Positions 12,665-47,386 of a DNA stretch of 64,000 nt are shown here, in pieces. A program made the position numbers and the translations under genes. The notes under the pieces were generated by a model, which was not told the DNA's origin, did no database searches, and worked only from the letters and a program-made list of their open reading frames with translations. The stretch comes from Naegleria gruberi (lineage: Eukaryota). Position 1 is the first letter of the stretch. Each line of letters opens with the position of its first letter. The stretch lies in assembly GCA_000004985.1 (NCBI GenBank), contig GG738903.1. One strand, 5' to 3'.

Positions 12665-12819
12665 AAGGTTAACTCCCTCTGATTTGAGAAGCTAAGCGTT
12701 GTCTAGCCACATCAGTACTGAGGTTGAAGACAACTTGGGAACCTGTGGTGCAGTGATAATTCTCATTAGTAAAAGTCACTATTGAATAATTTTATGACCT
12801 TGAAAGAAAAAAAGGTTAT

Positions 12820-23100: not shown

Positions 23101-23620
23101 CCATATCATTTGAATTTTCTGAATCTTCTTCATCGATTCTATCTACACACACCTCCAAAACTTCACTAATTGTCTTCAAAATATTCGAATCATAATTCGA
23201 ATCTTTAAATTGTTGTAAAATTTCTTCACAACCATTTTCGATAATTGAAATCAATTTCTGAGAAAGATTAAAATTATTCTCTGGTACAAAAATTGTAGAA
23301 GTATCCAATACTTCAGACATGTCATTTGCCAGAAAGAAACCTGTCATGTTTGTTGTTGGACGATCAATCAGAGTTTCGAATATATGTTCAGTGAAAGAAG
23401 AAAACTTGGCAGAAGATGTTGGTTGTTCCGTAGCAGTGGTAATATGTTGTGTAGAGGAGAAAATATCCGAATTATTGCTAACAGTAACTTTGGACCTTTC
23501 TGTTTCGTTTAAATTAGTTTCATTATTCGATGATGATGATGGAAACACATCTTGTAATGTTGGTTGTTCATGAATTGAAGATCCTTCATCATTGGAAGTG
23601 TGACTGTCAGCATCCTCCAT
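20108..23620 (-). CDS. Formin (Diaphanous-type: N-terminal GBD/FH3-like region, coiled coil, Pro-rich FH1, FH2), 1170 aa
   Basis: FH1 PPEVPVIPQPPVTTGVPLPPGMNSGIPLPP followed by an FH2-like region (KPIFLERILNTEVKKTIF...GCMPTSEEV...NYLN.GN); single long ORF. Confidence 0.85.
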   Translation of the reverse strand: MEDADSHTSNDEGSSIHEQPTLQDVFPSSSSNNETNLNETERSKVTVSNNSDIFSSTQHITTATEQPTSSAKFSSFTEHIFETLIDRPTTNMTGFFLANDMSEVLDTSTIFVPENNFNLSQKLISIIENGCEEILQQFKDSNYDSNILKTISEVLEVCVDRIDEEDSENSNDMAKDSKYSKWISDFLTGGGLTMMTTSLDHSELVSDKINKDRIPLEVHFLKCTQKLLDASEFSREFFLKDRDALRALVLILDCESLELRAEALLLLTAILNIHIENVDTHALILENFYLFKKIKSEPKRFHFLGKSFNDLANLENHAEEILCKGNSKQYIMALMVFFNGLISKSPNEGIKSMIVKELKGLGMHTSAKQIHLRIEEIIDDLDIDLGKEPIYSNVLLQVGAFEKHFSKYYHDTCLGILEDVDTTNPIEISKSISSYLTSLSNESNQINNIFVNSLNTMLRLTKFGVIKNQSVGEIYNSWKTIDRILKIAINEDKVTFTTETEIEQRKDIEQMRQYILKLENENAKLETQKTNLEKKVKKQEQDDFNKNIINNATSLDEEKPEQVNQHVVETVVSQLQEQSAKPVEISQLQPVENISTSATPPEVPVIPQPPVTTGVPLPPGMNSGIPLPPSGSNSCPTPPVGNVGALSDLPQLPKAKPSTATKPIFLERILNTEVKKTIFVEKKLAENTNELIKKIDLESLGKTFQKVEISKKPAEKEKPANNKPKIEEVKVLDQNKSYMISIQLKSIKKLNKDETDEMKFARLRRGILQMDESYDTELVSCLSKCMPTSEEVESVTKTAEELENLPQNPMNVKVLGLVEKFIYEIRDIPFSLNRIAAWMFKFNLASTAMNIRNKLEIIIGACDQLQNSPSWLNLLSLVLTISNYLNTGNSKMQNLYGFKVSSLSVLEQVKSTDQKKTMIHVLCQLCQEKFPEILKLDSELSNIPKCAPMNFFLIREEIQQFKDEVDSVRKTFKLMESMKEKNLLDETDRFIEIIGPIIEMAETQIVKIDQLLTKAEHSLKSTQELFGEKDIMKDENPNGIPSTISDETLSESLKPHQNMEIEKRTLISIVAHFIQNMTKTHVIVQERREKELREARIQEKQRKKQVGSFFTNLKKLTVRQKMKNAFFGGLAVSHVSDDDHLFSVASSKKPLSCMELIAGQTIQVSSSSQF

Positions 23621-30600: not shown

Positions 30601-32138
30601 TACTTTACAGCCATGTGAAGTCCCAAATTCTTCCATTCACGCATCAATGAGATTCTAACACCTTCATTTGGAGAAACAGAGATCAATGAATTGAAAAAGA
30701 TCATGGTTGTCAAGACATAGGAAGCAATTGCTCCATTAAACATGTCATCAACTTCCAAATTTTCACCAGCCAAAAAGTTTAAACTATCAATCAAGAAATG
30801 GAAACGTTTTGGTTCTCTCTTGATCAATTTAAAGCTTGTCAATGCGTCAAGAATCAATTCGAAACCATCCATATTCTCAACATTCAAATTCATAATCACA
30901 GAAAGCAAAAGCAAAATTTGTGATCTCAATTCCAATGAATTGGAATCCAAAGTAAGAACCAAAGTTCTCAAAATATCCTTGTTCTTAAAGAAACAACCTC
31001 TAGCATAATCGGAAGTATTCAAAATTGTTTCAATACACTTTAAACAGTAAACTTCCTTTGTTTCCTTCTCTTCATCTGCAGAAGTTGACAATGCAGTCGA
31101 TGCCAAACAATCTGCCAATGAAGTGAGACCTCCCTCATTCAAGAAACCTCTCAACCACACTGAGTACTTGACCTCTTCAGAAGTTGTTGAAATTTCCAGT
31201 AAACTTTGATCTTCTTCAGCTGAAAGAGTTGAACAAATTGTCAACACTTCAGAAATTGTCTTTAACTGCAACAAATCAAAATTTCTCTCTGTAAACTTTT
31301 TGATAATCAAAGAGGGACTTGCATTGATAGCTTTCAATGTCAATTGTTCTTGTTTGTTCAAGTGATTTTCTTTGATTAAATTGTCTTCCTCTTCTTCTTT
31401 ACTAATTTGCTTTGGAGGAGTGGCATCTTTCTTTCCGAACATACCACCCATCAATTTTTGAATTCCTGACATTCTCTTTGAACTAACAGAAACTCTAGGT
31501 GAAAGCATATCAAGAAAATTATTCGAATCCAACGTTGGAGAAGTAACTTTTGGAGTTGTCTTCTCCTCATGAACCTCCTCACCAAACACCATATCACCAG
31601 TAAATGCACTAAAATTACCAGATCTTCTCTTATTAGCAGCAAAATTCAATGAAGATGGAGTAATTGACTCAACATTGAGTGTATCAAAACATGAAGATGA
31701 TGATGACAATGATTTGGAATTGGGTGGTGTTGATTGATTGGTTGTTGGAGGAGAGGTTTTCCTTCCAGAACCATTACCATTAGCAGAACCAGAACCAGCA
31801 AACATTTGTGCAAAGATGTTTGATGATGAGTTATTGTTGGAATTTGGAGATTTTGATGTTGTTGGATGTTGATGGGTTGTATTGGAGGAGGAGGAAGAAT
31901 GGAGGGGAATGAAATCTTGATTCCTTTTTGGAGATTCGTCTTCATTTGCTGGTGGAGAAGCTAATTTTACTTGGAAAGCTTCCTCTTCTTGTTTTTGATT
32001 GTTTGTTCTTGGAGTGATGATGGTTTCGGTGGTGATTTTGCCTAGGGAGCTGGATTGTCTTGTGATGATTGGTGGAATTTTACCAGTCTCATTGTTTAGT
32101 CCAGTTTCGTGTGGTGTTTCGGATGACATTTTACACAA
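27666..32138 (-). CDS. Formin paralog 2 (GBD/FH3-like region, FH1 with highly repetitive poly-proline, FH2), 1490 aa
   Basis: About 10 tandem GIPMPPGMGVPPPPGS(G) units; FH2-like region RKTKVFFFDTIPQTNIQQTIF...GNYIN; N-terminal region collinear with formin 1 (ISEVL..C, GGLT, EDKV.FTTE.EIE). Confidence 0.85.
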   Translation of the reverse strand: MCKMSSETPHETGLNNETGKIPPIITRQSSSLGKITTETIITPRTNNQKQEEEAFQVKLASPPANEDESPKRNQDFIPLHSSSSSNTTHQHPTTSKSPNSNNNSSSNIFAQMFAGSGSANGNGSGRKTSPPTTNQSTPPNSKSLSSSSSCFDTLNVESITPSSLNFAANKRRSGNFSAFTGDMVFGEEVHEEKTTPKVTSPTLDSNNFLDMLSPRVSVSSKRMSGIQKLMGGMFGKKDATPPKQISKEEEEDNLIKENHLNKQEQLTLKAINASPSLIIKKFTERNFDLLQLKTISEVLTICSTLSAEEDQSLLEISTTSEEVKYSVWLRGFLNEGGLTSLADCLASTALSTSADEEKETKEVYCLKCIETILNTSDYARGCFFKNKDILRTLVLTLDSNSLELRSQILLLLSVIMNLNVENMDGFELILDALTSFKLIKREPKRFHFLIDSLNFLAGENLEVDDMFNGAIASYVLTTMIFFNSLISVSPNEGVRISLMREWKNLGLHMAVKYIYLKYEVLAEEQNIDKDDEESPLSNIFLQIKAFESVFNSFAEEHDEESSSIKDLDEIDLSSPIDIARSISNYLITLNKDDEASSSSSAHNSFVNILNSMLKLTKFGIISKSKGIEIEEINKSWATVENLLKVAIKEDKVKFTTEKEIELDGLVKTQQRTILDLENEIMNMKKELFQQKQELEKRDAEERSKKRKQTLSSFMNAVTNLSKEETLKLELTKSKEENLTLTDKLKEAEAEKEKLEVQIKEIRVINQRAMQLEEFMKVNNLKLPSETGATGGVPPPPGSTGFVPPPPGGLPSGSGVPPPPGSGIPMPPGMGVPPPPGSGIPMPPGMGIPPPPGSGIPMPPGMGVPPPPGGLPGIPMPPGSGVPMPPGMGMPPPPGMGGLPGMPPPPGMGMLPGVKKPVLPTLPNAKPRRKTKVFFFDTIPQTNIQQTIFIKNGIAEKTNEWIKKIDLGTIEEAFEKVEEKAIATDQPAKKKVEEIILIDGKRSNNISIQFSALKKLDNSETDQMKCARYRNAIIEMDEKTVDDNNIEVLSGCMPLDEEIPVIQKYLDDTKEEEVSEDPDAPKKVIPMAETFFTFLLDIPSPLTRVQSWDFKLKLGSRISAIRPKLDSMLNGCKELQASTKLHDILALILTIGNYINQHAPNKKLQNIYGFKISSLEKMQTMKARDPKQSMLQYLAQVCQDNFPELLTVSNDLSSVQTCTRLQLAPIDQDIKKLQEDTKKTKNFFEKMKKEKNIHPKDRFLEVMEETIGTAQNQLEIIEKSRTTVEENLKLIAALFDEKPQDLLDKPDTFFTQIHNFVESLNKACEDLKAKREKEEKEKQKKLQEETKKKNEKQLGFDKKKELLMQRKKAASSTTATSLLTKPSINATPQSPSFDLSSLKSKTSLLSSLTPTSAKTPTGDEENKLLSVLGKQQEERKKNANNFFAGLMNLAKKEEETKKKPNNLMGLLAKGLTNGQLLKSRTETKNLMDSLK
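29380..29790. repeat. Intragenic tandem repeat (27/48-nt periodicity) encoding the FH1 poly-proline tract of formin 2
   Basis: Repeated ggaggaggcattccaggtaaaccacc / cctggtggcattggaatacctgaaccaggtggaggagg units read directly; the artefactual ORFs on both strands here are typical of such repeats. Confidence 0.7.
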
Positions 32139-34963: not shown

Positions 34964-35200
34964 AACATTCCAACTCTATTAATGGGTTATTGGCATAATA
35001 AATATGATAATATTTCAATGAACCAAATATCAGAAAGCATGGGAAACTGATGAATAGGTTACTTGTTTGCCCTTTTTGTAAAGTAATGAAATATGGTGAT
35101 TTCAAAGATGGTCTCCTTTCATCTTTATTCAAAGATGTGAATGTCTAAAGCATTCTTTTGAACTCTTTTGTTGCATGGCCATTCTTGTTTCAAAGTTGGT

Positions 35201-36484
35201 TTAACTCCTTAATGCCAATGTATAATAGTATGGTACCAAGAAATTGTACAATACAAATAATGGATCTGTGGTTGGTATCTTTTTCAAAACTCTCATCGAG
35301 TACCAAAATCTCTTTTCATCAGTTCCAATTTGATGTCTCTCCACAATGGCTAACTTCTCTCCTGGATAAATGTTACCATGCTTTGGACTCTTGTAGACAT
35401 ATTGGATGTACTTGTGTGCATCAGAGTTGGTTGTTCTGGCCGCATAGATGTATCTGTCAATAACGAGTGCCAACACACTAGTTTCATTGGCAGAAAAGAT
35501 TGCAAAATCAGAATTACTAGGGTCACTCGATGTTGAAATTGCAGTGTCCAATTGTTTGATAGATCCCAACTCTGCATCTCCACATCCAAATATTGTGAAT
35601 TTTTCAGATTTTTCAAAAGCTAAATAAGGTGTTTGACTTCCAACTTCCATGACATAATCTAATTGAAATTAAATAGTATTTAACCAGAAATAATATTATT
35701 ATTAAATAATTAATAATACTACATATTACATACGGTGCTTTGTTGATCCATGAACATTATACAATCTGTATTTGAATAATTCAGGACTATTCAATTCACA
35801 ATACTGATCGTATTTAGGATAGGAATCACAAATTCCATTCTTTGCAAATGAAAAATAATTCAAATAGGTAACAGAGCTTGTTTCAACTCTTGTGTAGGTG
35901 TAATCTCCAGGATTACCAACAACCAGTGAAGAATTCCAAACCACATCATTATTAGCCTCATTCATATAATTTTCAATAGCACTATCCGTAAATGGTTGAC
36001 AATTATAATTTGTTGGTTTAGGAACGACGGCTTTTGTCAGAATGACTTCTGTTACTATAAAGTAGAGAGAAAAACCAATTAAAAGTGCTGCAATAATCAA
36101 TCCAAGACTAATATAAACTGCTCTATTCATATACTTGTTCCAATCAATGGTCGGTTTTTGTGGTTGTTCAAATTCTTCCAAGTCTTTTGCGTTGGCAACA
36201 TCCTTAATATTATTATGGGTGTTTATCCTTGTTGGTACCTCCTCCAATTCCTCTTCCGATGAATTTCTATCCAGTGAAGATAATGGTGCCGACGACTGAT
36301 GAATAGTAGGTTCCTCATCATCATGTTGTCCATACTTGGATACTTTTTTTAATGCTGATTTTTTAGGTGAATGTAGAGTAACAACATTTCCGTGATTGTA
36401 TGAATGACCCACCGAGTAATGATGATGATGGTCGTGATTGGGCGAGTTTGCTGGTGAGTGATTGAATGATTCTTCGTTATTCAT
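35201..36484 (-). CDS. Hypothetical single-pass (type II) membrane protein, 2 exons join(complement(35201..35658),complement(35734..36484)); His-rich cytosolic N-terminus
   Basis: Exon 1 ends ...GSTKH|c with a GTATGT donor; 75-nt intron; CAATTAG acceptor restores the frame into ...HYVMEVGSQTPY; TM segment AVYISLGLIIAALLIGFSLYFIV. Confidence 0.5.
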
Positions 36485-36731
36485 TTTTTTTTGATTTTTT
36501 TTAATTAATATTAATTTTTCGGGTGATGATTTTCAATTTGGGTAACGGATCTTTATTTGGAAAACATATTATTATTATTATTGTAATACAGTATTAAATA
36601 GTATTAAGATGATTTACCATTGCAATGGAATACCATCGAATTGAATAAAGATTCCGCGTATGCATAAATTTTTTTCTCAAATTTGTAAAGTTAAGGGAAA
36701 TAAATGTTTGTTTTTATTGAACATTGTGGTA

Positions 36732-37298
36732 TTACTTTCCAAATTTCATCTTAATGTTGGTAATTGAAATTTCTTGTTCAGATTCTTCATCATAGTCAAA
36801 ATATTCCATATTTTCCAAGTTGACTTCAAATTTGTTTCCATCACTGAAAGCAACCAATCCTTCACTTCCTTCTGGTTCCCATTTGACAATATCAACACCA
36901 CGACACTGTACACAACCAACTGTCAATTCACCCTAGCACATACAGAACTACTTACATCAAATTGAACGAGTGGGAAGAATTTTTCACTTTGAGTAATTTC
37001 CTTAAATGATCCACTAATCACATCAATGGTGGCATGTCTCTTGCAGACAGAGCATGAAAAGTTAACATTGGTAGCACTAGTTCCTGCCTTAACATTCTTA
37101 TCTTCCTTTTCATTTTCACAAATAAAGATGTGCTTGGCGTGTTCAGTTTGGCTGTAAGATCGTTTGTTAATATTAAATTCATTGCTTCCGATAAATGTCT
37201 ACTCACCAATTTGGACACTTGACTTTAACTCTCCAGGTAAAAGCAGCTGGATCTTCAATGGTGACCTTCTCCAATCCTTGGAGTGTCATGGCTACCAT
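36732..37298 (-). CDS. CXXC-motif zinc-binding protein CZIB (DUF866/UPF0587, C1orf123-like), approx 162 aa, 3 exons join(complement(36732..36932),complement(36956..37151),complement(37207..37298))
   Basis: MVAMTLQGLEKVTIEDPAAFTWRVKVKCPNC | QTEHAKHIFICENE...NFSCSVCKRHATIDV...LVQFD | GELTVGCVQCRGVDIVKWEPEG...; two CxxC pairs and a length typical of the family; intron 1 is 55 nt (GTGAGT..TACAG); intron 2 is only 23 nt (GTAAGT..CTAG). Confidence 0.7.
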
Positions 37299-37958
37299 TC
37301 ATCATTTATATTAATTATTATTAATTTTGTTAGCATTTAATCATGATGTTATTAATATATATAATATTTCATCAATATGTTCATCATCATCGTGTTTGAT
37401 AATAACACCAATTTCATTATTCCGAACCAATCATCAAATCATCATCATATGTAATTAATTATAATAATTATTATTAATCCAACAAGAGTTGAAATACAAA
37501 AGGAAGAAAATTCATAATGATGAAAATGATAAAATCAGGTATTAATTGTGTTAGATTCCGATTGAAAAATTCCGAATAAAAGAAACGAACCAACTTCGAG
37601 GGTTTGTTTTGGCATTTTTTTTGTGTTTTTTTTAGGTGCAAATTTGGAATTTGGAATGTAAAATGATTAAAAAGGAAATTTTGTTTTTTTTTGAGAATTG
37701 TTGAGGGAATTGAAAATTTGATTTCTATTTATGTAATATTTTAATGAATTAAAAGAAAAATTAATGAAATTATTAGGAATATTGAAGGTTTGGAAAGAAA
37801 AATTGAATTGAAGAGTTTGATTTGGTTGTTCTAGATGAGAAAATTCCAAAAGGAGCTGGTGTTCCAAATGTTCTCACTTTAATTCCATAATTGACAAAAT
37901 TGCAAAATTTCCAAATTAATTTTCATTTTTTATAATTTTAATAAAAAATTAAAAATAA

Positions 37959-38798
37959 TTAAAAATAAAATAATTTTTCAAACCTACCAATACAGGAAGG
38001 ACAATTAGTAACCTTCCACGACTGCAAAGCTTCCGAATCACTAATCACCACATGAACCTTATTATTCTTAATCAATTCAAATTGTTCATCAAAAGATGTA
38101 AAAATTTTCTTGGCAAGTGGCAGCGTTTGATTCGCCAATGTTTCATAATAAGTTCCAAAATATGCTGCAACGATAATATCAGGCGAATTCAACTGTGAAA
38201 TATCTTTCAAATTTGCAAAAGTTGCATTATTTTCCTTATTTAGTAACGTTCGTAAAAATCCATTTGCAGTAGATCCATATCCACAATCAGAAAACTGAAC
38301 CTTGGACCTTCTCTCTGTAGTATATGTCGAATCAGCAACTGAAACATCACATTCCTCAGTTTCCACTGCCTTCTTCATCGATTCAAAGAATCCATCAGTG
38401 GCATTTACATATACGAAACGAGTTGCTAGGGAAGTTCCATATTTTGAGTTGATTGCACTCACTAATTCCAATCCAACCCTTTTGTAAATATCTGCCCACA
38501 TTGTGTCAGAAGTTACACCATCATAGCAGAGCTTTAATTCTTTAACTGAGCTTGGAATGGGAAATTTGGTTGGCCAACTGGGATTACTGGTGCACGCAGG
38601 AACACTGAATGCAACAGTATTGGCAATATAATTAATAAACGATTTGGAGGAAGACACTTGTTTCATGGCTGCATTAATCATTTGGTTGAATTCGATGGAA
38701 ACTAGCTGGTTAGGGATTGTAGATGTTTGACAGTGAATTGCCTTCCAATAAAACATTAGAAAGAGGATAATGGGAAGAGCTCTCATTGATAACGACAT
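37959..38798 (-). CDS. Secreted periplasmic-binding-protein-like protein (solute-binding family 3 / ionotropic-glutamate-receptor ligand-binding-like), approx 279 aa
   Basis: Signal peptide MRALPIILFLMFYWKAIHC; CDVSVADSTYTTERRSKVQFSDCGY resembles the PBPb / Lig_chan motif (D.A.A.TIT.ER...DFS.PY). Confidence 0.5.
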   Translation of the reverse strand: MSLSMRALPIILFLMFYWKAIHCQTSTIPNQLVSIEFNQMINAAMKQVSSSKSFINYIANTVAFSVPACTSNPSWPTKFPIPSSVKELKLCYDGVTSDTMWADIYKRVGLELVSAINSKYGTSLATRFVYVNATDGFFESMKKAVETEECDVSVADSTYTTERRSKVQFSDCGYGSTANGFLRTLLNKENNATFANLKDISQLNSPDIIVAAYFGTYYETLANQTLPLAKKIFTSFDEQFELIKNNKVHVVISDSEALQSWKVTNCPSCIGRFEKLFYF

Positions 38799-38933
38799 TT
38801 TTTTCAATTTAGAGATAAGGAATCGATAGATTTTGTTGGATTATTATCTTTGACCGAAACTGATGCTCATTGGCAACACCGAGATTGATTGGGAAAAAAA
38901 CCATCAATAGCTTTCTAATTTATTGTAGAAAAT

Positions 38934-41900
38934 TTACAAGAAAATAAACATTGCTGCCACAAATACGACCAACAAATGAGATAGATATTGTCTACTTGGG
39001 TTTGAATGATTCAATCTTAATGATTGGCTAATGATTGGTGAGGTTTTGGATGGTTGGATTGGAGGTTTCTGTTGGGCTGCGCTAAAAACTTGAATAATAT
39101 CGAATGCATTGTGAATTGAAGTACCACTCTCATCCAGATTAAGCTCTCTGTTTGAAGAGGTGCTTTTCATGATCGATTCTGTATGAATAAAACAAGTGTT
39201 GACCTGTACACTTTCTGATGAACCTATTGGAAACATGTTTGATTGGATGGTAAATTTGAAACCTAATTGGAAATTAATTAATGGAAACTTGATCAATTCA
39301 GTTCCATATTGTGAAGAAACGACTTGGTTATCAATTAAGTGAAGCCAATTTGACATGGTTGTAGAATTATATCTTTGACAACCGTAGGAATTCTGAGATG
39401 GATCATAGGTTGGCATTGAAACTCCTGATTTTGTGCAACAGAGATAGGCATTCTTAATAGATAACGAGATTGATGAAGGAAGAGATGAGGATTTTCCATT
39501 AGAATCTACAATATTAACCAAAACGTGTGGAGAATCTGAAATTGTGAATAAATTTTTAGGTTGACCAAAGTTGTTGGAATATAGATTAACTTGAGTTGAG
39601 TATTTGAGTTCGGTTGGAGGAGGGTTGATTGGCATAGTGTAAGATAAAGAAATACTTAACAAAACTTGAACAATTTTCTCACCGGTTCTAACTTGAATTG
39701 AAAAGGTAAAAATTCCAGAAATGTACGAAACTTTCTGCTTTGAGCTAATAATGAGATTATAACTATTTGGTTGATATTCACTCAAGATAATATCAAAATC
39801 AATATTTTGATAAGGTTGGGAGCCCAAATAACTCACAGAGACCACAGTCACATTATTAGTAAATAATTTGCCTGATAGGGAGAACAATCCATCCTGAATA
39901 GTAATAATTTCTTTTCTGTAATTTACATTAACATTGTCTCCAAAAGTCATGTTTCCATTCACGTCCATACCAATCATTTGGTGAGAGGATAAAACAAGCT
40001 TAACTTGATGATTCACTCCATAATTCACAATTTCACAATAATCTCCATTTTGAGAATCGAATTTGTTGGTGATTAGTCCAATATTAATTGGAACGTTTAG
40101 GGTGAGAACAGTTCCTGAGGAATCTAGCTGTTTAACAATACGAGAATCATTCATCAAAGTGGAGATGCTGGTTGTGAGTGAGTATTGGGCTTGACATTCG
40201 AATAATTGTTCTGGTTGGAAGGATGGTTGATTCTTGGAACAGGAATCAATGCTGGAATGAGAAATTACAGTTTGGTTTGTGGTAGAGAGAAGGCTCTTTG
40301 GTATTTTGATAGAGTAGGTCAATTGGTAGCCTCCACCTGAACTAGAAACGCTCACTATTGGGGTCTCTGATAATTGAGAGCATGGATTTTCTTGAGTATC
40401 TTGAATATCACATCTAATACCAAAACTTCCTAATGGACATGTTTCACATGAAGTTGCATTAGTGCAAGTGTTACATGTAATTAAGCATGTCTCAGTACAG
40501 TTTCGTCCAAAATATCCGAATTGACAAACTAAACAAGTAGAATTGGAAATATCGCAACTAATGCATCTTTCAGGACATTCAACGGATGGTATTCCATTAT
40601 TATCATCCCCTGAATCAACTTGCAAACTATTCAATACAGGAATATCGTATGCAGTTGTAAATAAAGAACTAGCCGATTCGAATGTAAGTTTAAACTTTGA
40701 AGGAAGGATAGCACCTTGGATTGGAACCAATTCGAATGTCAATTGGCTATCAGTACACAAAGTGTTGATTCCACTGAAATAATTTCTCAAAACAATCACG
40801 TTATTGTTTTGATCGAAAGCTTTCAGATAGAGGAAGGCTTCTTGATCACTTTGTTGTAATGATTTTTGAAGGGATTCTCTCCAATAATGGTCCATTCCAT
40901 TGATTTTCACATTTATAATGGTAGTATTGATATTGGAAAGTCTTTCAAGGTTTGTTAGACCTTTGTCGAAACTTAGAGAAATGTCAGTATTTGGCAAATT
41001 CTCAACAGAAAATGAAATAGATTGAGAAGTAATTAAATGAGTATAACCAAACAGGAAATTACCATAATTCGTCTTAAATGAAATTGGCAATCTTTCAATA
41101 ACATTGCTCGATCCAATATAATCTGGAACTCTCGAACTAGCTGTCATGATTGATGAAGGATCTGAAAAAGAAGGTGGAATATTTTTAGTACTTGAGCTGA
41201 GATAAACTTTTCCAATTGGATAGGAGGCGAATTGTTGTTTGAGAACAATTCCAGATTTTCCAGAATTCTTTTCACGTGTCAAAATTTCAGAAAGGTCTTT
41301 GTAACCATAACCAAATGTGCTTGGATTCATAGAGATGGAAATTGGTTCATTATATTTGGGAACATGAACTAGGGAAAGTTCTAATTGGAATGTCTTGGTA
41401 GTTGTTGCAAGATTCTTGAGACGAATTTGGACGAAACGATCGAATACTACACAATTTCCCTTGATATTCGAAATTGAGTCAGTATCCAATACGAACATGT
41501 TATTATCTACTGTCTTGGTAAGAGTATTGTAGACATATCCATCACTTGTTACAATTCGAATGTCAAGCTCAAAATTATTGACAATCAAATTGCCAGTTGT
41601 AGAATCAATAACTCTCAAGTAAACTTTAGAATTGGTATTCAGAGCAACACTGTCATAGAAAGTTCTACAATCGAATGCAAAATAAGTTTGTTCTTGACTT
41701 GCTAAATTTTTGGCACTTGATGGAATTCCATTTACAAGTTTGTAATTTGGAAATACTGAAATAGTGACAGGTTTAGTAGTTGCAATACCAACTTCTGTTC
41801 CGTACTGATTATCCTTCAACATTGGGATATAGCTTCCTGTTTGAGTCAGAGTATAGGTCAATCCAACACCAGGTTTAGGTTTAGCATAGAAAGCTCTGTA

Positions 41901-44387
41901 AATTTCATAGTCAGTGTAAAGCTTGACGTTCAATTCATTGTTAACTGGACGAACGAATAGATAAGGATAGACAACGTCCTTATCACCGAACTTTAAACCA
42001 ATCAATCGATTCAAATTATCTTGAACAACTGAAGCGTCAGAAGGAGAAAATTCGAAATAAGGATCGAATCTAATAGAATTCAACTCTAATGGAAAGTCTG
42101 GGTCATTAGGAATGAGCTGAATTACTACGTAATGATCTGCAGATTCATAATTGTTTTGCATGGTAATTGGATAAAAGTAATTTCCAAGAATAGACCAATA
42201 AGGATACGTTTCTTCATACTTTCGTCCATCAGTTTGTACGAATCTTCCGTTCTGGAGCCATGCCTCATAGACATAGGCATCAAAACAGCCATATGAATCC
42301 ATTACTACACCAAATTTTGGAATCTTTCTATTGACTTTTTGGATAAATGTTACCATTGTAGAAGTGTCTCGAATAGCTTGTCTTGGATAACTTAAGGTTT
42401 CTGAACTTTCGATTGGTTGATAAGCAAAAACCTGTTCAAACTGGATAGTGAGGGAGTTGATAGGATTGATAATAAAATCTGTGTTGTTGAGGAATGCAGA
42501 ATAAACATATTTCGAATTGGAACTGTCGTAAAATTCTGAAAAACCTGTCAATGGAGTTTGGAGTTGGGGTACAATGCTGGATTTTGTTGAAAATGAAATG
42601 AATGAGAAAGTATTGAGAATATTTCTCAAATGTTTAAAGATTGTCCTTTTTGAAATCAAAACTGAATTCTTTGGAGTGCTACTAAACTCGATAGTATTTG
42701 TTGTAGAGCCAGTAATGACAGTTTCGTTAATGTAATTAACTGGAATAGGATTGTTGGCCGAAACTGTGGAATTACTAGCAGTTGCTGAGAAGAATGTTGT
42801 TTGGAGAGAGTAGGTACCACTAATACTTGGAATATGAGTGTAAGTAATTACTTCAAAAGACTTGGAAAAAGTGTCCTTAACGTCAATTGAAAGTCCAAGT
42901 TTGTAAAAAGCATCAAACTTTACAAAAAGAGAAGCCGATGATCTGGAGACTGTGCCTTCAGTATGAATTTGACCTTTGATTGTTGGAATGATGGCAACTT
43001 CAGCAGAAGGCAACCATGAAGTTAATTCGAATTTGAATTTAGGATAAACTGCGAGCTCAGCAGTGGCATTACCTTCCATGAAAATTCCAGGAGATTTGGA
43101 GCTCCAAACAAGACCATCACCTTCATTGATATCAGAAAAACCAGTACCTGACTCATACTTGTAACCAACATATTTAGAATAAGAGACCAAAAAGTTTCGT
43201 CTATATTCAATCTTTCCAGAGGCCTCAATATTCAGCTTATACTCGAGAGAAGGTGTAATATCAAGTGAAAAGAGATAAAACAAGGAAATCTTAATAGGCG
43301 CAGGTAACTTGTACAAGGTTCCCTCTTTTGTTTTCGAATAGCTTGCTTGGTAACTGAACAATAATGTTGCATTAGCTAGAGTTTGACCGCCTACGAGAAT
43401 TTTAGCAGAGCTAACTTTCCACCAACCCAATTCAATTTCTGCCTTGATTTCTAAATTAACAGTTGCAAAGCAATCAAGACAATCAATGGTGAAGGAAGTT
43501 GTTCCATTAACATATTTGTATAATCCAATAGAAGGATTTTTGACTTTTTGCTCAGCAATGTCATAATTGAAACCAGTATTGAATAGACGATAGGTTGTAG
43601 AGTATCTCTTGTTGGTTGGTTCACTAATTTGCAAAGTATTCGAATCTACCATGTTTCTAACAAGTGGAACTGAATAATAATCAACTTTCAAGTCATAGAA
43701 CAAATCTTTTGGCATAATTTTCTTAACATGAAACTTGACTCTCACCATGTTATCCTCACCATATCTAATTTCTCTAGCCAAAACCAAAAAAGCTTGGATA
43801 TTTTCATTACCATATTTGGTGTCTGTGTCTTGACCATAGCATTGCCATTGTTTACCAATAACAAGTCTAGAACCAGGAATTAATCTCTTTGAAGTGGAAT
43901 GACCATTAGCAAAATCAATGTCTAGTTGATTGTCAGAACATTTGACATCCCAGACGTTTACGTCATGGTCAAGCATGGACACACCAGAAATTACTTTTCC
44001 ATACAATGAGTAGATGTGATGAGAGCCATGGATGATAGCTTGTCCGCTTTGTGACACTGTCATGTAGTCTTCTTCCTTTAGAATTTCATGTGGGTTTCTT
44101 CTTCTTTTTAAAGATTCTTCTGAATGTTTATATTCGAAAAGTGAAAATCCATACGAATCTGTTTGTGAAGCATGTACGAATTCGTTGTTGTTCTTGAAAG
44201 GATGAATAGTTGGTGAAGTAAATCCAATATCCAATGCCTTTCCAATGAAAATACTTTCGTCTAGCAAATTTCTGGACCGAATCTTCTTGCCAAACATTCT
44301 TTGGGTGGGAAATGAAGGTTGTTGAGCACTAAATACCACGCAACCACTCAACAACAATAAAACTAATAACCATGTGCTAACTTTCAT
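38934..44387 (-). CDS. Very large type I surface protein (1817 aa): signal peptide, huge novel ectodomain, furin/laminin-EGF-like Cys-rich cluster, C-terminal TM anchor
   Basis: MKVSTWLLVLLLLSGCVVFSAQQ; CPERCISCDISNSTCLVCQFGYFGRNCTETCLITCNTCTNATSCETCPLGSFGIRCD; C-terminal LSHLLVVFVAAMFIFL. Confidence 0.7.
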   Translation of the reverse strand: MKVSTWLLVLLLLSGCVVFSAQQPSFPTQRMFGKKIRSRNLLDESIFIGKALDIGFTSPTIHPFKNNNEFVHASQTDSYGFSLFEYKHSEESLKRRRNPHEILKEEDYMTVSQSGQAIIHGSHHIYSLYGKVISGVSMLDHDVNVWDVKCSDNQLDIDFANGHSTSKRLIPGSRLVIGKQWQCYGQDTDTKYGNENIQAFLVLAREIRYGEDNMVRVKFHVKKIMPKDLFYDLKVDYYSVPLVRNMVDSNTLQISEPTNKRYSTTYRLFNTGFNYDIAEQKVKNPSIGLYKYVNGTTSFTIDCLDCFATVNLEIKAEIELGWWKVSSAKILVGGQTLANATLLFSYQASYSKTKEGTLYKLPAPIKISLFYLFSLDITPSLEYKLNIEASGKIEYRRNFLVSYSKYVGYKYESGTGFSDINEGDGLVWSSKSPGIFMEGNATAELAVYPKFKFELTSWLPSAEVAIIPTIKGQIHTEGTVSRSSASLFVKFDAFYKLGLSIDVKDTFSKSFEVITYTHIPSISGTYSLQTTFFSATASNSTVSANNPIPVNYINETVITGSTTNTIEFSSTPKNSVLISKRTIFKHLRNILNTFSFISFSTKSSIVPQLQTPLTGFSEFYDSSNSKYVYSAFLNNTDFIINPINSLTIQFEQVFAYQPIESSETLSYPRQAIRDTSTMVTFIQKVNRKIPKFGVVMDSYGCFDAYVYEAWLQNGRFVQTDGRKYEETYPYWSILGNYFYPITMQNNYESADHYVVIQLIPNDPDFPLELNSIRFDPYFEFSPSDASVVQDNLNRLIGLKFGDKDVVYPYLFVRPVNNELNVKLYTDYEIYRAFYAKPKPGVGLTYTLTQTGSYIPMLKDNQYGTEVGIATTKPVTISVFPNYKLVNGIPSSAKNLASQEQTYFAFDCRTFYDSVALNTNSKVYLRVIDSTTGNLIVNNFELDIRIVTSDGYVYNTLTKTVDNNMFVLDTDSISNIKGNCVVFDRFVQIRLKNLATTTKTFQLELSLVHVPKYNEPISISMNPSTFGYGYKDLSEILTREKNSGKSGIVLKQQFASYPIGKVYLSSSTKNIPPSFSDPSSIMTASSRVPDYIGSSNVIERLPISFKTNYGNFLFGYTHLITSQSISFSVENLPNTDISLSFDKGLTNLERLSNINTTIINVKINGMDHYWRESLQKSLQQSDQEAFLYLKAFDQNNNVIVLRNYFSGINTLCTDSQLTFELVPIQGAILPSKFKLTFESASSLFTTAYDIPVLNSLQVDSGDDNNGIPSVECPERCISCDISNSTCLVCQFGYFGRNCTETCLITCNTCTNATSCETCPLGSFGIRCDIQDTQENPCSQLSETPIVSVSSSGGGYQLTYSIKIPKSLLSTTNQTVISHSSIDSCSKNQPSFQPEQLFECQAQYSLTTSISTLMNDSRIVKQLDSSGTVLTLNVPINIGLITNKFDSQNGDYCEIVNYGVNHQVKLVLSSHQMIGMDVNGNMTFGDNVNVNYRKEIITIQDGLFSLSGKLFTNNVTVVSVSYLGSQPYQNIDFDIILSEYQPNSYNLIISSKQKVSYISGIFTFSIQVRTGEKIVQVLLSISLSYTMPINPPPTELKYSTQVNLYSNNFGQPKNLFTISDSPHVLVNIVDSNGKSSSLPSSISLSIKNAYLCCTKSGVSMPTYDPSQNSYGCQRYNSTTMSNWLHLIDNQVVSSQYGTELIKFPLINFQLGFKFTIQSNMFPIGSSESVQVNTCFIHTESIMKSTSSNRELNLDESGTSIHNAFDIIQVFSAAQQKPPIQPSKTSPIISQSLRLNHSNPSRQYLSHLLVVFVAAMFIFL

Positions 44388-44585
44388 TTTTTTGTCTCGA
44401 TAATTGCGTTTGAAAGCTAGACGAATTGTTCGAAACTGGTCGTTGAGAATACGAAACTTCTATATAAGGAAGAACCGAAAAAAATAATGGAATCTGCGTG
44501 CCAAAGCAAGGATGGGAATTCATTCTACAAACTACAACATGACACCTTTTTCATCTTAATATTTTACAATATTTCTTCAAGGATG

Positions 44586-46343
44586 TTATTGATTAAAAAA
44601 CTGTTTCGAAAGAATTTTGACATCTTTTTCTGCAAAATCCAAGTCTGTGAATATTTCCAATCTTTCCTGAGGAGTGAATTTGACTAAATGGTTGCATAAT
44701 TGTTTCACAAAAGCCAATTTGGAAGATTTTTTGAAAATTGGAAAGCAAGCTTTACAAAAAGCAACAATTTCTTCATCTGAAACAGTTAGAGAAATAATTC
44801 GTTCCTCAAGCATATTGATGGTATTTTCAGGAAATCCCAAACGATGTCCGTATGAGAACAATTCCAGTAAATTATTTTCATCCAGTTTTTCAAACTTTCC
44901 AGTGTAAATAAAATTGCACAACTCTTGAATAACTGAAAAGTTGCATCCTTGAATTTCAAGTGTTGGAATTTCATCATGGAGAGCGGATTCTTTCATTCTT
45001 TCTGTTTCATCGAAATTAGAGTTGAGTAAAATATTGAAAAACATGGATCGTTCCGATAAGAAGTCTTTGTGACATAGTATTGATTCTGTAGATTCAACAA
45101 AGAAAACCTCTTCTAGATAATTCTCAATTTTGATTTGGACATTACACAAACTTCGTTGCAATTTCTCAAACTTGGACCTACTTTCAAAGGAGCTGTGGAA
45201 AATACAACCTTTCAAGTCCTTCTTGAATAGTTCATCTGATTCCTTCATTGCAATGTTAATATCCTTTCTATGATCCCTGAATATATCTACAAAATTATAC
45301 ATTCCCAAGCTTTCCATCCAATCACAATAGTCTTGCTTTTGAGTGAATCTTTCCAAACTTTCTAATTTTGTGCATTTCTTTGGATTTTCCGTTCTCACGA
45401 TACAACCCGTGTAAATCCATACCAGTAGATTATCGAATTGAATTTTGGTCAATGGAACTGGTCCCAAATCAATATGTCGCAACTCTTCTCTTTTAAAAAA
45501 ATCTCTAATTTCAGAATCATCATCTGGTATTAAATTCTTCATTGCATCAAATTCGTCTGTTGGTCTTTTAAAATTTTTCTTTTGATTTACAACCAAGATT
45601 TGTTCCTTAATTTGCTCAATTTTTCTATCATAATCCTTTATCTTCAATGCTTTCTTGTTAATAGAATTGAAATATTTCTCAATCTCCAGTTTTGTTTTCA
45701 AATTAACTATGGCCAATTCATCACTTGTTAAGGTGTAGCTTGTTTTTTGTGGAATAGGTCTCTCCTTATTTACCAGAGCAAAATAGAGTAGCATTGGCCA
45801 TCTCTTCAAAATAATCCACCAATGACAGTAGTAAATTGTATCCTCCTCATTCTTTCCGAATCTAATTCTAATAGTCAAATCACTCTCTTCTGGTTTAGTT
45901 CCATAAATAACCCTCCTTGCCATTTTCATCATGAATAGATCGAGTGGCTTGAACTGATCTTGTTCATACGTTTGTTCACCAATATCTTCACAATCCCCAT
46001 TTTTCATTTTGAACATCTTTAGTCCTTCATATGAATTATAAACTCTCAACAATTCTCTAACTCGTAATGACAAGGCATTCATATAACACCTTGCATTTTT
46101 ATCATCACGAGCTCCCAATTCCGATAAATATTTGACCAAATTCAAATGTCCACATAAACAAGCATAATAAAGTGGTGTATTTCCATACCGATCGGGTTTA
46201 TGCAAGTCTGATATTTTAATTGTGGCTCGGACCCTATTCAAATCTCCAACTTTGCAAAATGAATAAATATCGCTCTTTGGAGAGAGTGGAGAGGTTAGCC
46301 CTACTCGTTGTTGATACATTTTTTTCTGATGAACTTGTTGCAC
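44586..46343 (-). CDS. Ankyrin-repeat and BTB/POZ domain protein, 585 aa
   Basis: N-terminal ankyrin repeats (GNTPLYYACLCGHLNLVKYLSELGA); BTB-like segment near the C-terminus (KDFLSERSMFFNILLNS...ALHDEIPTLEIQGCNFSVIQELCNFIYTGKF). Confidence 0.7.
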   Translation of the reverse strand: MQQVHQKKMYQQRVGLTSPLSPKSDIYSFCKVGDLNRVRATIKISDLHKPDRYGNTPLYYACLCGHLNLVKYLSELGARDDKNARCYMNALSLRVRELLRVYNSYEGLKMFKMKNGDCEDIGEQTYEQDQFKPLDLFMMKMARRVIYGTKPEESDLTIRIRFGKNEEDTIYYCHWWIILKRWPMLLYFALVNKERPIPQKTSYTLTSDELAIVNLKTKLEIEKYFNSINKKALKIKDYDRKIEQIKEQILVVNQKKNFKRPTDEFDAMKNLIPDDDSEIRDFFKREELRHIDLGPVPLTKIQFDNLLVWIYTGCIVRTENPKKCTKLESLERFTQKQDYCDWMESLGMYNFVDIFRDHRKDINIAMKESDELFKKDLKGCIFHSSFESRSKFEKLQRSLCNVQIKIENYLEEVFFVESTESILCHKDFLSERSMFFNILLNSNFDETERMKESALHDEIPTLEIQGCNFSVIQELCNFIYTGKFEKLDENNLLELFSYGHRLGFPENTINMLEERIISLTVSDEEIVAFCKACFPIFKKSSKLAFVKQLCNHLVKFTPQERLEIFTDLDFAEKDVKILSKQFFNQ

Positions 46344-46364: not shown

Positions 46365-47048
46365 TTACACTCTCCTGACCAAACATACAATTTCTGAATT
46401 GTTTGCAATCTGTAAATCCTCTAAAGTTGACTTGCTTTCAAGTACCTTTCTATTTTCAAATATTTGATTATTAATTCTCAATCCAATCATTTCTTTAATT
46501 ACTCCACTCTTCAATGCAAGCCATTCCACTACTTCACCCAGTAAAACACAACTTTTAAAACCTCCTTCAAAGCTCATTCCATTCATAAACTTGAATTTCA
46601 ATATTACATCACCCTGATTAGTTTTGCTAGTCAATTCCTCAACCCTTTTACTGTCCTCCTCCAAGTCTTTAATTTCATCTTCCAAATCTTCCATTTCCGA
46701 ATCTTCGTCCATTTCAAATTTTCCCTCTTCATACAAATTTGTTGGATTATGATCATCTTCCTTCTCAACCCGATGAATAATTTGTCCCTTTGACAAAATA
46801 TCATCAATATCAATATTCAACTTCTCGGCAATCTTCATAGTACATTGCAATATGTGTAATGATAGTTCCTTCTCTTGTTCTGTCGTCAATACCATCTGAA
46901 CACCTAAAGGAAAAGCAAAATTAGGAGTGTTAGAACCAGCACTATGACCACACCAAGGGCATTTGCCAGTACTAATATTAATACCAGTATATGTGGATGA
47001 ACAATTTTGCAATGCTCCGATCAAGTAATTAAACTCAGTTCTGTCCAT
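46365..47048 (-). CDS. UBX-domain (ubiquitin-like fold) protein with N-terminal Cys/His-containing motif and acidic linker, approx 227 aa; start set at the internal Met MDRTEFNYL
   Basis: C-terminal DVILKFKFMNGMSF...RKVLESKSTLEDLQIANNSEIVCLVRR has a UBX-like pattern; CPWCGH motif near the N-terminus. Confidence 0.45.
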   Translation of the reverse strand: MDRTEFNYLIGALQNCSSTYTGINISTGKCPWCGHSAGSNTPNFAFPLGVQMVLTTEQEKELSLHILQCTMKIAEKLNIDIDDILSKGQIIHRVEKEDDHNPTNLYEEGKFEMDEDSEMEDLEDEIKDLEEDSKRVEELTSKTNQGDVILKFKFMNGMSFEGGFKSCVLLGEVVEWLALKSGVIKEMIGLRINNQIFENRKVLESKSTLEDLQIANNSEIVCLVRRV

Positions 47049-47386
47049 GTTATTGTGTGCGAATTTTTTTTTATATGAAAAATTTCCAGTTATTAGAGGT
47101 GGGAAAAAGTTGTTTACAAAACTGTAAATATTGAAGTAAATTCTTTGAAAACATTTGGACCAAGTCACAACAGCATATCGGCCAATCAATATTGCTAATT
47201 GCCCAAGTTTTTCTTCCTTGACCTATCCAAGCAAATATTCCAATTGCATGATATAGATTGGTCAATTTGAATTATTACAGATCTCTGAAAACCTTTTCAT
47301 TGAAAAATAAGTTCCAAAAAGGAATCAATAATTGTAAGTTTATAGTTTTTTCGAAATTAAATAAAATTCTGTGAAAATTAGTGAAA

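What the first reader, a model, noticed from the sequence alone, without database searches (positions are those of the whole stretch)
37959..44387. Secreted periplasmic-binding-protein-like gene directly downstream of a roughly 1800-aa Cys-repeat surface protein
Two same-strand genes are separated by only about 135 nt. The upstream gene encodes an 1817-aa type I membrane protein with a completely novel ectodomain, a furin/laminin-EGF-like Cys cluster and a TM anchor. The downstream gene encodes a signal-peptide protein whose core (CDVSVADSTYTTERRSKVQFSDCGY) resembles bacterial solute-binding family 3 / iGluR ligand-binding domains. A free-standing secreted PBP-like protein is uncommon in eukaryotes. 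The spacing leaves almost no room for an independent promoter, which suggests co-regulation, read-through, or a recently split or fused gene.
Basis: partly seen in the sequence, partly recalled or inferred. Interest (0 to 1): 0.5.

Follow-up and report, generated by a model that had tools for sequence, protein, structure and literature searches.

The report
Amoeba surface solute-binding protein beside orphan glycoprotein
Two ordinary neighbouring genes of the amoeba Naegleria gruberi: an orphan 1817-residue surface glycoprotein, and a bacterial-type amino-acid-binding ("Venus flytrap") protein from a wider amoeba family that probably sits on the cell surface; nothing shows that the two work together.

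Summary
The window is Naegleria gruberi. Both ORFs exist on the minus strand, 135 nt apart.

**Small gene (NAEGRDRAFT_73258).** It is a real relative of bacterial family-3 solute-binding proteins.
- Its own Pfam score is just under threshold, at 25.1 bits against 26.4.
- A family profile hits solved amino-acid-binding proteins at E=6e-20.
- The carboxylate-binding Arg is invariant in the family.

The protein is not one of a kind. At least 70 clusters exist (Naegleria, Willaertia and unnamed environmental sequences), mostly built as signal peptide, binding domain and C-terminal hydrophobic tail (GPI-signal-like).

The annotated 279-aa model misses a 111-nt intron and a last exon. The tail appears only after a +1 frameshift.

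**Large gene.** It has a signal peptide and a C-terminal hydrophobic end with no cytoplasmic tail, so it looks GPI-type rather than type I. It has one 13-Cys cluster and no Pfam or PDB match.

**Linkage.** The idea is unsupported. A 135-nt gap is ordinary in this window, each gene has its own targeting signals, and the adjacency is absent at four homologous loci.

Precedents exist: the GPI-anchored EhVFT of Entamoeba and PfVFT1 of Plasmodium. Interest is modest.

The parts
38934..44387 (-). Large gene: single-exon ORF of 1817 aa, predicted surface glycoprotein (12% Ser, 7.6% Thr, 16 N-x-S/T sequons).
   Evidence: ORF and composition. No Pfam family at E<=1 for the whole protein, nor at E<=10 for five segments. 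No PDB sequence match at E<=1. The exact sequence is not in the 15-billion-protein collection.
44325..44387 (-). Signal-peptide-like N-terminus of the large protein (MKVSTWLLVLLLLSGCVVFSA).
   Evidence: These are the most hydrophobic windows of the protein. Translation checked.
40380..40577 (-). Cys cluster, aa 1271-1336: 13 Cys, containing two copies of the spacing C-x2-C-x5/6-C-x2-C-x8-C.
   Evidence: Cys positions and sequence. No furin, EGF or laminin profile or PDB match.
38937..38975 (-). C-terminal hydrophobic stretch LLVVFVAAMFIFL, ending at the stop codon. GPI-attachment-signal-like, with no cytoplasmic tail.
   Evidence: mean Kyte-Doolittle value 3.26.
38799..38933 (-). Intergenic spacer of 135 nt. 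It holds AATAAA 9 nt after the stop and a second in-frame stop (TGA) nine codons after the first.
   Evidence: The spacing is ordinary for the window.
37988..38798 (-). Small gene, exon 1 (aa 1-270 plus one base). It holds the signal peptide (38730..38798), a family-specific helical and Cys-containing N-terminal extension, and most of the SBP3-type bilobed domain, including invariant R163 and D254.
37877..37987 (-). Intron missed by the public gene model: 111 nt, GTAGGT...AAAG, 12.6% GC, with stops in all frames.
   Evidence: Homologues read straight through the junction.
37773..37876 (-). Small gene, exon 2: (V)RTFGTPAPFGIFSSRTTKSNSSIQFFFPNLQYS*. It supplies the last strand region of the binding domain.
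   Evidence: V271, F274, G275, A278, P279, F280, G281, F283, T287 and T288 are identical to P0002.
37741..37806 (-). Hydrophobic tail SIFLSKPSIFLIISLIFLLIH* in another frame, reached only if one base is added. Probably the family's C-terminal anchor signal, lost through an assembly error or a real frameshift.
   Evidence: At the 3' ends of 29 other ORFs, only the large protein's own tail is as hydrophobic next to a stop (3.26 against 3.21; the next is 2.39). 30 of 46 full-length family members have such a tail.

Best explanation
These are two independent neighbouring genes in the gene-dense nuclear genome of Naegleria gruberi. Each encodes a protein routed to the cell surface.

**Small gene (NAEGRDRAFT_73258)**
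- It belongs to a family found in Heterolobosea (Naegleria, Willaertia) and in many unnamed environmental sequences.
- The family architecture is: signal peptide; a helical, Cys-containing extension of about 60 aa; a bacterial family-3 (type II) solute-binding 'Venus flytrap' domain; and a C-terminal hydrophobic GPI-type signal.
- Shown here: the homology, the fold, conservation of the Arg and Asp that hold the carboxylate and amino groups of an amino-acid ligand in GlnBP, and the family architecture.
- Inferred: it binds an alpha-amino acid or a similar small polar solute in the cleft between its two lobes and closes on it.
- Inferred: tethered to the outer membrane leaflet, it acts as a sensor or co-receptor for nutrient or prey cues. 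This would resemble the GPI-anchored PBP-type receptor EhVFT of Entamoeba, and is distinct from acting as part of a bacterial-style ABC importer.

**Large gene**
- It encodes an orphan Ser/Thr-rich surface glycoprotein of 1817 aa.
- It has a signal peptide, two furin-repeat-like Cys motifs and a GPI-type C-terminus.
- It is most likely a coat or adhesion protein (inferred).

**Adjacency.** The 135-nt spacing reflects genome compactness, not an operon, read-through or a split gene.
For: **Organism and gene identity**
- The small ORF is 100% identical to N. gruberi XP_002671762.1 / D2VW57.

**Homology to family-3 solute-binding proteins**
- Pfam SBP_bac_3 gives E=1.6e-5 for this protein. Relatives score 32.3 and 32.0 bits, above the cut-off, and 13 of 25 members hit.
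- The family profile against PDB sequences gives AncCDT-1 at E=6e-20 and Glu/Gln/Arg-binding proteins at 1e-13 to 1e-7.
- hhalign against GlnBP gives probability 93.5%, with R163=R75, T158=T70 and D254=D157.

**Fold**
- AlphaFold2 with a 25-sequence alignment gives pLDDT 82.9 and pTM 0.74.
- Foldseek finds 159 PDB matches at E<=1e-3, and the top 50 listed are nearly all solute-binding proteins or their close derivatives.

**Family and architecture**
- The profile search finds 133 representatives at E<=1e-3 and 70 at E<=1e-10.
- Named members are N. fowleri, N. lovaniensis (three), N. gruberi (two) and Willaertia (two).
- Signal peptides and C-terminal hydrophobic tails are seen.
- Y120, G136, C150 and R163 are invariant, and further Cys are nearly invariant.

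**Gene model**
- The intron and exon 2 are supported. The frameshifted tail is supported.

**Independence of the two genes**
- No shared neighbours and no relative of the large gene were found at loci L002, L004, L005 or L006.

**Precedent**
- EhVFT is a GPI-anchored PBP-superfamily protein that controls motility and phagocytosis in Entamoeba (PMC12965686).
Against: - The protein's own Pfam score (25.1 bits) is below the gathering cut-off (26.4).
- In the assembly as it stands, the N. gruberi protein ends without a hydrophobic tail. The anchor needs a +1 frameshift that I cannot verify.
- No GPI predictor or experiment was available. A short C-terminal membrane anchor is not excluded.
- The ligand and the signalling role are inferred only from conserved residues and from an analogy with a different PBP class.
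- The synteny test is weak. The family has many paralogues and Naegleria species are very divergent, so true orthologues may not have been compared.
- Orphan status of the large protein is not established.
  - The word-indexed search demonstrably misses true relatives.
Confidence: 0.7

Rival explanations
1. One reading: the two genes form a functional unit. They would be co-transcribed or read through, or would be the halves of a recently split or fused gene. The binding protein would work with the giant surface protein.
For: The genes share a strand and lie 135 nt apart. Both are predicted surface proteins. The two ORFs happen to be in the same reading frame.
Against: - The gap is the third shortest of 16 tandem gaps, with seven at or below 221 nt.
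- Two in-frame stops separate the ORFs.
- The large protein ends with its own C-terminal signal, and the small one starts with its own signal peptide, as do its homologues.
- No relative of the large protein lies next to family members at four other loci.
- Sharing a frame has a one-in-three chance.
Confidence: 0.06
2. In N. gruberi the small protein is truly soluble and secreted, ending ...NLQYS as in the assembly. It would act as a released scavenger or binder of an extracellular solute, not as a tethered receptor.
For: The assembled sequence gives an in-frame stop before any hydrophobic tail. 16 of 46 full-length family members lack a tail. PfVFT1 of Plasmodium is a signal-peptide VFT protein with no recognisable anchor (PMC13199436).
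Against: A strongly hydrophobic tail followed by a stop sits in the +1 frame at the expected distance. Among 29 other ORF 3' ends, only the large protein's own tail matches it. The closest full-length homologues (P0002, P0003, P0005, P0006) all have the tail.
Confidence: 0.18
3. The protein is the substrate-capture component of a eukaryotic uptake system. It would deliver amino acids to a membrane transporter, as lipid-anchored binding proteins do in Gram-positive bacteria.
For: The closest relatives by sequence and fold are ABC-importer binding proteins. In Willaertia a family member lies directly downstream, on the same strand, of an ABCB-type half-transporter gene.
Against: - The scanned neighbours carry no BPD_transp_1 or ABC_tran family, and gene tables for the N. 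fowleri and N. lovaniensis loci list none.
- The Willaertia transporter has the exporter-type fold family (ABC_membrane), and that adjacency is seen only once.
- More distant hits to the family profile fuse an SBP_bac_3 domain to protein kinases (P0079, P0110), which points to sensing.
Confidence: 0.1
4. The small protein is an enzyme that evolved from a binding protein, like cyclohexadienyl dehydratase.
For: The best PDB matches include the reconstructed ancestors of cyclohexadienyl dehydratase and the enzyme itself.
Against: The top match, AncCDT-1, is itself an amino-acid-binding protein and not an enzyme, as its PDB title states. The ligand-holding Arg and Asp of binding proteins are kept. 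A surface-anchored architecture does not suit an aromatic amino-acid biosynthesis enzyme.
Confidence: 0.03

Closest known systems
Bacterial polar amino-acid-binding proteins of ABC importers (Pfam SBP_bac_3: GlnBP, HisJ/LAO, ArtJ, reconstructed AncQR and AncCDT-1)
   Same: Homologous bilobed type II fold. The T-x-E-R motif has an invariant Arg aligned to GlnBP R75, and an Asp is aligned to D157. Size and secretion are similar. Gram-positive members are likewise lipid-tethered (my own knowledge).
   Different: - It is a eukaryotic nuclear gene with a spliceosomal intron.
- It has an extra N-terminal helical extension of about 60 aa.
- It has nearly invariant Cys (C69, C91, C150, C172, C269, C272), suggestive of disulfides.
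- It has a eukaryotic signal peptide and a GPI-type tail.
- No permease or ATPase genes lie beside it.
- Its own Pfam score is just below the cut-off.
EhVFT of Entamoeba histolytica (PMC12965686)
   Same: An amoeba protein built as signal peptide, periplasmic-binding-protein-fold domain and GPI signal, with no transmembrane or cytoplasmic part. It is shown experimentally to be on the plasma membrane and to affect motility and phagocytosis. It is the best functional analogue.
   Different: EhVFT is a type I PBP (ANF_receptor / LIVBP-like, related to class C GPCR ectodomains). It is not SBP_bac_3. It comes from a different supergroup (Amoebozoa) and has no sequence relationship beyond the superfold. 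Nothing is known experimentally about the Naegleria protein.
PfVFT1 (Pf3D7_0606800) of Plasmodium falciparum, PDB 5jkq
   Different: No anchor signal is recognised in PfVFT1. Identity is 11%. It did not appear in the PDB sequence search with the family profile (best 60 of 66 listed).
Ligand-binding domains of ionotropic glutamate receptors (Lig_chan-Glu_bd, S1S2)
   Different: No ion-channel membrane domain interrupts the two lobes. There is no Lig_chan-Glu_bd Pfam hit. It is clearly nearer to bacterial binding proteins.
Furin-like / laminin-EGF Cys-rich repeats (for the large protein)
   Same: Two copies of the spacing C-x2-C-x5/6-C-x2-C-x8-C, with a G-Y/S-F-G motif before the last Cys. This resembles furin-like repeats as I recall them.
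   Different: No Pfam match even at E<=10 on the isolated segment, and no PDB match. There are only two units in 1817 residues.

Membership tests
SBP_bac_3 (PF00497), family-3 solute-binding proteins | The protein's own score reaches Pfam's gathering cut-off. | tested here: not met
   25.1 bits against a cut-off of 26.4, E=1.6e-5, covering aa 114-179 only. The spliced 304-aa form scores 24.8 bits.
SBP_bac_3 (PF00497), family-3 solute-binding proteins | Close relatives reach the cut-off, and a family profile matches solved members. | tested here: met
   - P0003 scores 32.3, P0007 32.0 and P0060 27.7 bits.
- 13 of 25 members hit at E<=1e-3.
- The profile against PDB gives E=6e-20, with 66 chains at E<=0.01.
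- hhalign against GlnBP gives probability 93.5%.
SBP_bac_3 (PF00497), family-3 solute-binding proteins | Bilobed type II periplasmic-binding-protein fold. | tested here: met
SBP_bac_3 (PF00497), family-3 solute-binding proteins | Conserved Arg (alpha-carboxylate) and Asp (alpha-amino) ligand contacts of amino-acid-binding members. | tested here: met
   R163 is invariant in 25 sequences and aligns to GlnBP R75. D254 aligns to D157. The residue roles, and the GlnBP sequence used, come from my own knowledge.
SBP_bac_3 (PF00497), family-3 solute-binding proteins | Works with an adjacent ABC permease and ATPase. | tested here: not met
   The flanking ORFs that were scanned give no BPD_transp_1 or ABC_tran family. 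The N. fowleri and N. lovaniensis loci also lack them.
SBP_bac_3 (PF00497), family-3 solute-binding proteins | Demonstrated ligand binding. | not testable with these tools
   Needs recombinant protein with ITC or thermal-shift assays.
Ionotropic glutamate receptor | Lig_chan-Glu_bd profile hit, and a channel membrane domain between lobes S1 and S2. | tested here: not met
   No Lig_chan-Glu_bd or Lig_chan hit at E<=1. The protein is 304 aa with no helix predicted beyond those of the signal peptide and the bilobed domain. It gives only weak matches to iGluR chains.
GPI-anchored surface protein | N-terminal signal peptide, plus a C-terminal hydrophobic stretch ending at the stop and preceded by small or polar residues. 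| tested here: met
   Large protein: MKVSTWLLVLLLLSGCVVFSA... at the start and ...NHSNPSRQYLSH-LLVVFVAAMFIFL* at the end. Judged by inspection only; no GPI predictor was available.
GPI-anchored surface protein | The same features in the small protein. | tested here: inconclusive
   30 of 46 full-length family members have the tail. In this window it is present only in the +1 frame.
GPI-anchored surface protein | Actual lipid attachment. | not testable with these tools
   Needs PI-PLC release, Triton X-114 partitioning or mass spectrometry.
Furin-like / laminin-EGF repeat proteins (large protein) | Match to a curated Cys-rich repeat profile. | tested here: not met
   Zero Pfam families at E<=10 for aa 1255-1350. 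Best PDB match is E=0.44, to an unrelated protein.
Polycistronic, co-transcribed or split gene pair | Spacing shorter than the genome's norm, and adjacency conserved in relatives. | tested here: not met
   The gap ranks third of 16 tandem gaps. The adjacency is absent from L002, L004, L005 and L006.
Polycistronic, co-transcribed or split gene pair | A transcript spanning both genes. | not testable with these tools
   No transcript data were available.

The most novel reading that the evidence does not exclude
Heterolobosean amoebae carry an expanded and so far undescribed family of lipid-tethered, bacterial-type (family 3) amino-acid-binding proteins. These would serve as cell-surface chemosensors or co-receptors for prey or nutrient cues. 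More distant amoebozoan relatives fuse an SBP_bac_3 domain directly to protein kinases. That would be an origin of eukaryotic Venus-flytrap receptors from SBP3, independent of iGluRs and class C GPCRs and possibly seeded by gene transfer from bacteria. A less likely variant is that they feed a eukaryotic transporter, which would be a binding-protein-dependent uptake system outside prokaryotes.
Probability: 0.25. Interest if true: 0.6.

Novelty: new variant of a known kind. Interest (0 to 1): 0.28.

Why it matters
The gene pair itself is ordinary. What remains useful falls into three points.

1. **A corrected gene model for NAEGRDRAFT_73258.** The public model misses an intron and a terminal exon, and a probable frameshift hides the anchor signal.
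2. **An uncharacterised family.** This gene belongs to a sizeable family of surface-directed, bacterial-type amino-acid-binding proteins in Naegleria and Willaertia, which includes the pathogen N. fowleri. A GPI-anchored binding-protein-fold receptor was recently shown to control motility and phagocytosis in Entamoeba. These proteins are therefore reasonable candidates for how free-living and pathogenic Naegleria sense amino acids or prey. As surface proteins they could also serve as antigens.
3. **An unexplained large protein.** An 1817-residue predicted surface protein has no recognisable domain. It is a candidate adhesin or coat protein that current annotation does not explain.

Tried and rejected
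**Homologue searches**
- The word-indexed search with the large protein returned nothing, not even itself.
- The same tool given a 25-sequence family alignment failed to return most of those 25 sequences. Its negatives are therefore weak evidence, and I do not claim that the large protein is a proven orphan.
- Two metagenome scans found no relative: one with the large protein and one with the small-family alignment.

**Structure and domain searches on the large protein**
- AlphaFold2 on aa 1-1200 without an alignment gave pLDDT 30.5. That is unusable, so no fold search was run on it.
- Pfam on five segments at E<=10 found nothing.
- PDB sequence searches of the whole protein and of the Cys cluster found nothing significant.
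- BLAST found no internal repeats and no paralogue in the window.

**Other checks**
- The afdb50 fold library was not available, so the taxonomic spread could not be checked through AlphaFold DB.
- The poly(A)-signal argument was tested and dropped. A(A/T)TAAA occurs within 60 nt after 14 of 29 stops, but also within 80 nt upstream of 10 of 29 start codons.
- Rfam finds nothing in 35000..46000.
- A second intron as the route to the hydrophobic tail was rejected, because there is no GT between the SNSS codons and the tail.
- Literature searches for the locus tags and accessions of this gene and its relatives found no paper.
- The handing-in rule rejected the spliced protein. The profile search (A2) and the structure model (A3) therefore used the 279-aa form, which lacks exon 2.

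Full report
**1. What is there**

The window has about 30-39% GC and is densely packed with long ORFs. The small ORF is 100% identical to Naegleria gruberi XP_002671762.1 / EFC39018.1 / D2VW57 / NAEGRDRAFT_73258, on a 304-kb contig. Scanned ORFs elsewhere in the window include ordinary eukaryotic genes: two formins, Xrn1, Hsp70 and a BTB/ankyrin protein.

Both ORFs of the finding exist on the minus strand. The large one is 38934..44387 (1817 aa). The small one is 37959..38798 (279 aa from its first ATG). They are separated by exactly 135 nt.

**2. The small protein is a true family-3 solute-binding-protein relative**

- *Pfam.* On its own it scores E=1.6e-5 and 25.1 bits on SBP_bac_3, just under the 26.4-bit cut-off. 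It has no Lig_chan-Glu_bd hit.
- *Family.* An exhaustive profile search found 133 cluster representatives at E<=1e-3, 70 at E<=1e-10 and 21 at E<=1e-30.
  - The named members are all heteroloboseans: N. fowleri FDP41_000021; N. lovaniensis C9374_002535, _002538 and _008029; the N. gruberi paralogue NAEGRDRAFT_68554; and two Willaertia magna proteins.
  - UniRef already labels several of them 'Solute-binding protein family 3/N-terminal domain-containing protein'.
  - Several relatives pass the Pfam cut-off (32.3, 32.0 and 27.7 bits). 13 of 25 aligned members hit at E<=1e-3.
- *Solved structures, by sequence.* A profile of 25 members matches AncCDT-1 at E=6e-20, a glutamate-binding protein at 1e-13, and GlnBP and Arg-binding proteins at about 1e-7 to 1e-9. 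iGluR ligand-binding domains reach only 6e-4 to 3e-3.
- *Solved structures, by fold.* AlphaFold2 with that alignment gives pLDDT 82.9 and pTM 0.74.
  - Foldseek returns 159 PDB matches at E<=1e-3. The 50 listed are nearly all solute-binding proteins or their derivatives, mostly amino-acid- and opine-binding (best 1.5e-8).
It aligns the invariant R163 to R75, T158 to T70 and D254 to D157. To my knowledge these residues hold the alpha-carboxylate and alpha-amino groups of the ligand.

The homology claim stands.

**3. It is not one of a kind, and probably not free**

Full-length relatives share one architecture:
- a signal peptide;
- a conserved helical extension of about 60 aa (F-x-x-A-I-D-A-A, P-x-C);
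- the bilobed binding domain, with nearly invariant Cys;
- a hydrophobic C-terminal stretch that ends at the stop codon.

30 of 46 hits of 270-350 aa have such a tail. This is the layout of a GPI-anchored protein, or at least a C-terminally tethered one.

**4. The public gene model is incomplete**

- The 279-aa model stops inside what is really an intron. A GTAGGT donor at 37987 and an AG acceptor at 37877 remove 111 nt of 12.6% GC. They join an exon encoding (V)RTFGTPAPFGIFSSRTTKSNSS....
- That exon aligns residue for residue with the environmental homologue P0002. tblastn with P0002, P0003 and P0005 runs across the junction.
- In the assembly the frame then ends ...IQFFFPNLQYS* at 37773.
- In the +1 frame, at the expected distance, lies SIFLSKPSIFLIISLIFLLIH* (37741..37806).
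- At the 3' ends of 29 other ORFs in the window, only the large protein's own tail is as hydrophobic next to a stop (3.26 against 3.21; the next best is 2.39).
- I conclude that one base is probably missing, either in the assembly or in this strain. There is no GT that would allow a second intron.

**5. The large protein**

- It has a clear N-terminal signal peptide. Its last 13 residues (LLVVFVAAMFIFL) are hydrophobic and run straight into the stop, preceded by ...NHSNPSRQYLSH.
- With no cytoplasmic residue after the stretch, a GPI-type signal fits better than the 'type I TM anchor' of the finding.
- It is Ser/Thr/Asn-rich and has 16 N-glycosylation sequons.
- It has only 29 Cys. Thirteen of them lie in aa 1271-1336, as two units of C-x2-C-x5/6-C-x2-C-x8-C.
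- That spacing recalls furin-like repeats. However, no Pfam model matches the whole protein or five separate segments, even at E<=10. No PDB sequence matches either.
- There are no internal repeats and no paralogue in the window.
- A single-sequence AlphaFold model of aa 1-1200 was unusable, with pLDDT 30.5.
- The exact sequence is not in the 15-billion-protein collection, so the public model, if there is one, differs.
- I could not run an exhaustive homologue search. The word-indexed search that returned nothing is demonstrably insensitive. 'Completely novel' therefore means 'no recognisable domain', not 'proven orphan'.

**6. Is the pairing meaningful?**

- The 135-nt gap is the third shortest of 16 same-strand gaps between ORFs of at least 150 aa in this window: 45, 67, 135, 195, 198, 208, 221... 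with a median of about 350. The larger values are inflated by missed exons.
- Each gene has a complete set of targeting signals. Two in-frame stops separate the ORFs. Sharing a frame has a one-in-three chance.
- The N. fowleri (L002), N. lovaniensis (L004), Willaertia (L005) and environmental (L006) loci of family members have no large same-strand upstream gene of this kind. They give no tblastn match to any other ORF of the window.
- This is not a strict orthologue test, because the family has many paralogues. Even so, there is no positive evidence for linkage.
- I could not examine transcripts.

**7. How it most likely works**

- *Shown:* homology, fold, conserved ligand-holding residues and family architecture.
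- *Inferred:* the protein is exported and tethered to the outer leaflet, and it closes on an amino-acid-like ligand.
- *Inferred:* because it has no cytoplasmic part, it must signal or hand over its ligand through a partner.

Two observations favour sensing over transport.
- More distant hits to the family profile from Cavostelium (P0110) and an unnamed assembly (P0079) are SBP_bac_3 ectodomains fused through one TM helix to a Tyr/Ser-Thr kinase.
- Entamoeba EhVFT has the same architecture (signal peptide, PBP-fold domain, GPI signal), built on a type I PBP. It has been shown to sit on the plasma membrane and to regulate motility and phagocytosis (PMC12965686).

The transport alternative has one hint. 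In Willaertia, a family member lies directly downstream of an ABCB half-transporter gene.

**8. Novelty and verdict**

The domain is known, and automated annotation already names the orthologues. Free-standing or GPI-anchored Venus-flytrap proteins have precedents in protists. I found no paper on this Naegleria/Willaertia family. The surface-anchored SBP3 architecture is a new variant of a known kind, of modest interest. The headline of the finding, a functionally linked gene pair, is not supported.

Noticed in passing
L005 10001..13229 (Willaertia magna JBEGDK010000064.1): The annotated 557-aa protein P0023 looks like a merged model. ORFs 10001..10897 and 10952..11899 encode the membrane domain and the ATPase of an ABCB-type half-transporter. 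A separate SBP3-family gene, with its own signal peptide and hydrophobic tail, follows at about 12200..13229 on the same strand. This is a binding-protein gene directly downstream of an ABC transporter gene in a eukaryote, but it is seen only once.
   Followed up: partly
P0079 (unnamed Logan assembly, 667 aa) and P0110 (Cavostelium apophysatum transcript, 673 aa): Receptor-kinase architecture: signal peptide, SBP_bac_3 ectodomain (E about 1e-15), a TM segment matched in P0110, and a Tyr/Ser-Thr protein kinase domain (E=2e-55 and 1e-74). This is a family-3 binding domain used as a kinase-receptor ectodomain in amoebae.
   Followed up: partly
window 20108..23620 (-) and 27666..32129 (-): Two formin genes (FH2 domain, E about 1e-61 each) lie 4 kb apart and share 34% identity over about 1150 residues. 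This is an old local duplication.
   Followed up: partly
L004 (N. lovaniensis PYSW02000016.1): Two family members, C9374_002535 and C9374_002538, lie on the same contig with locus tags three apart. This suggests the family expands by local duplication.
   Followed up: no
L001 76..776 and L007 84..754 (ENA metagenome contigs): These are the closest relatives of the small gene, at 51% and 64% identity, from unnamed AT-rich environmental eukaryotes. L001 appears to have an intron at a different position (after ...YKSVV) and none at the N. gruberi intron site. L007 changes frame twice.
   Followed up: partly
window 36485..37740: A stretch of about 1.25 kb downstream of the small gene has only short minus-strand ORF fragments (for example 36732..36926 and 37018..37218). 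It may be a small multi-exon gene and was not analysed.
   Followed up: no
window 44586..46343 and 46365..47189 (-): The BTB/ankyrin ORF and the next upstream ORF are only 22-45 nt apart on the same strand. They are either an even tighter gene pair than the one in the finding, or two exons of one gene.
   Followed up: no
tool behaviour: The word-indexed protein search, given an alignment as its query, failed to return most of the proteins in that alignment (only P0001 and P0060 came back). 'No hit' from it should not be read as absence.
   Followed up: yes
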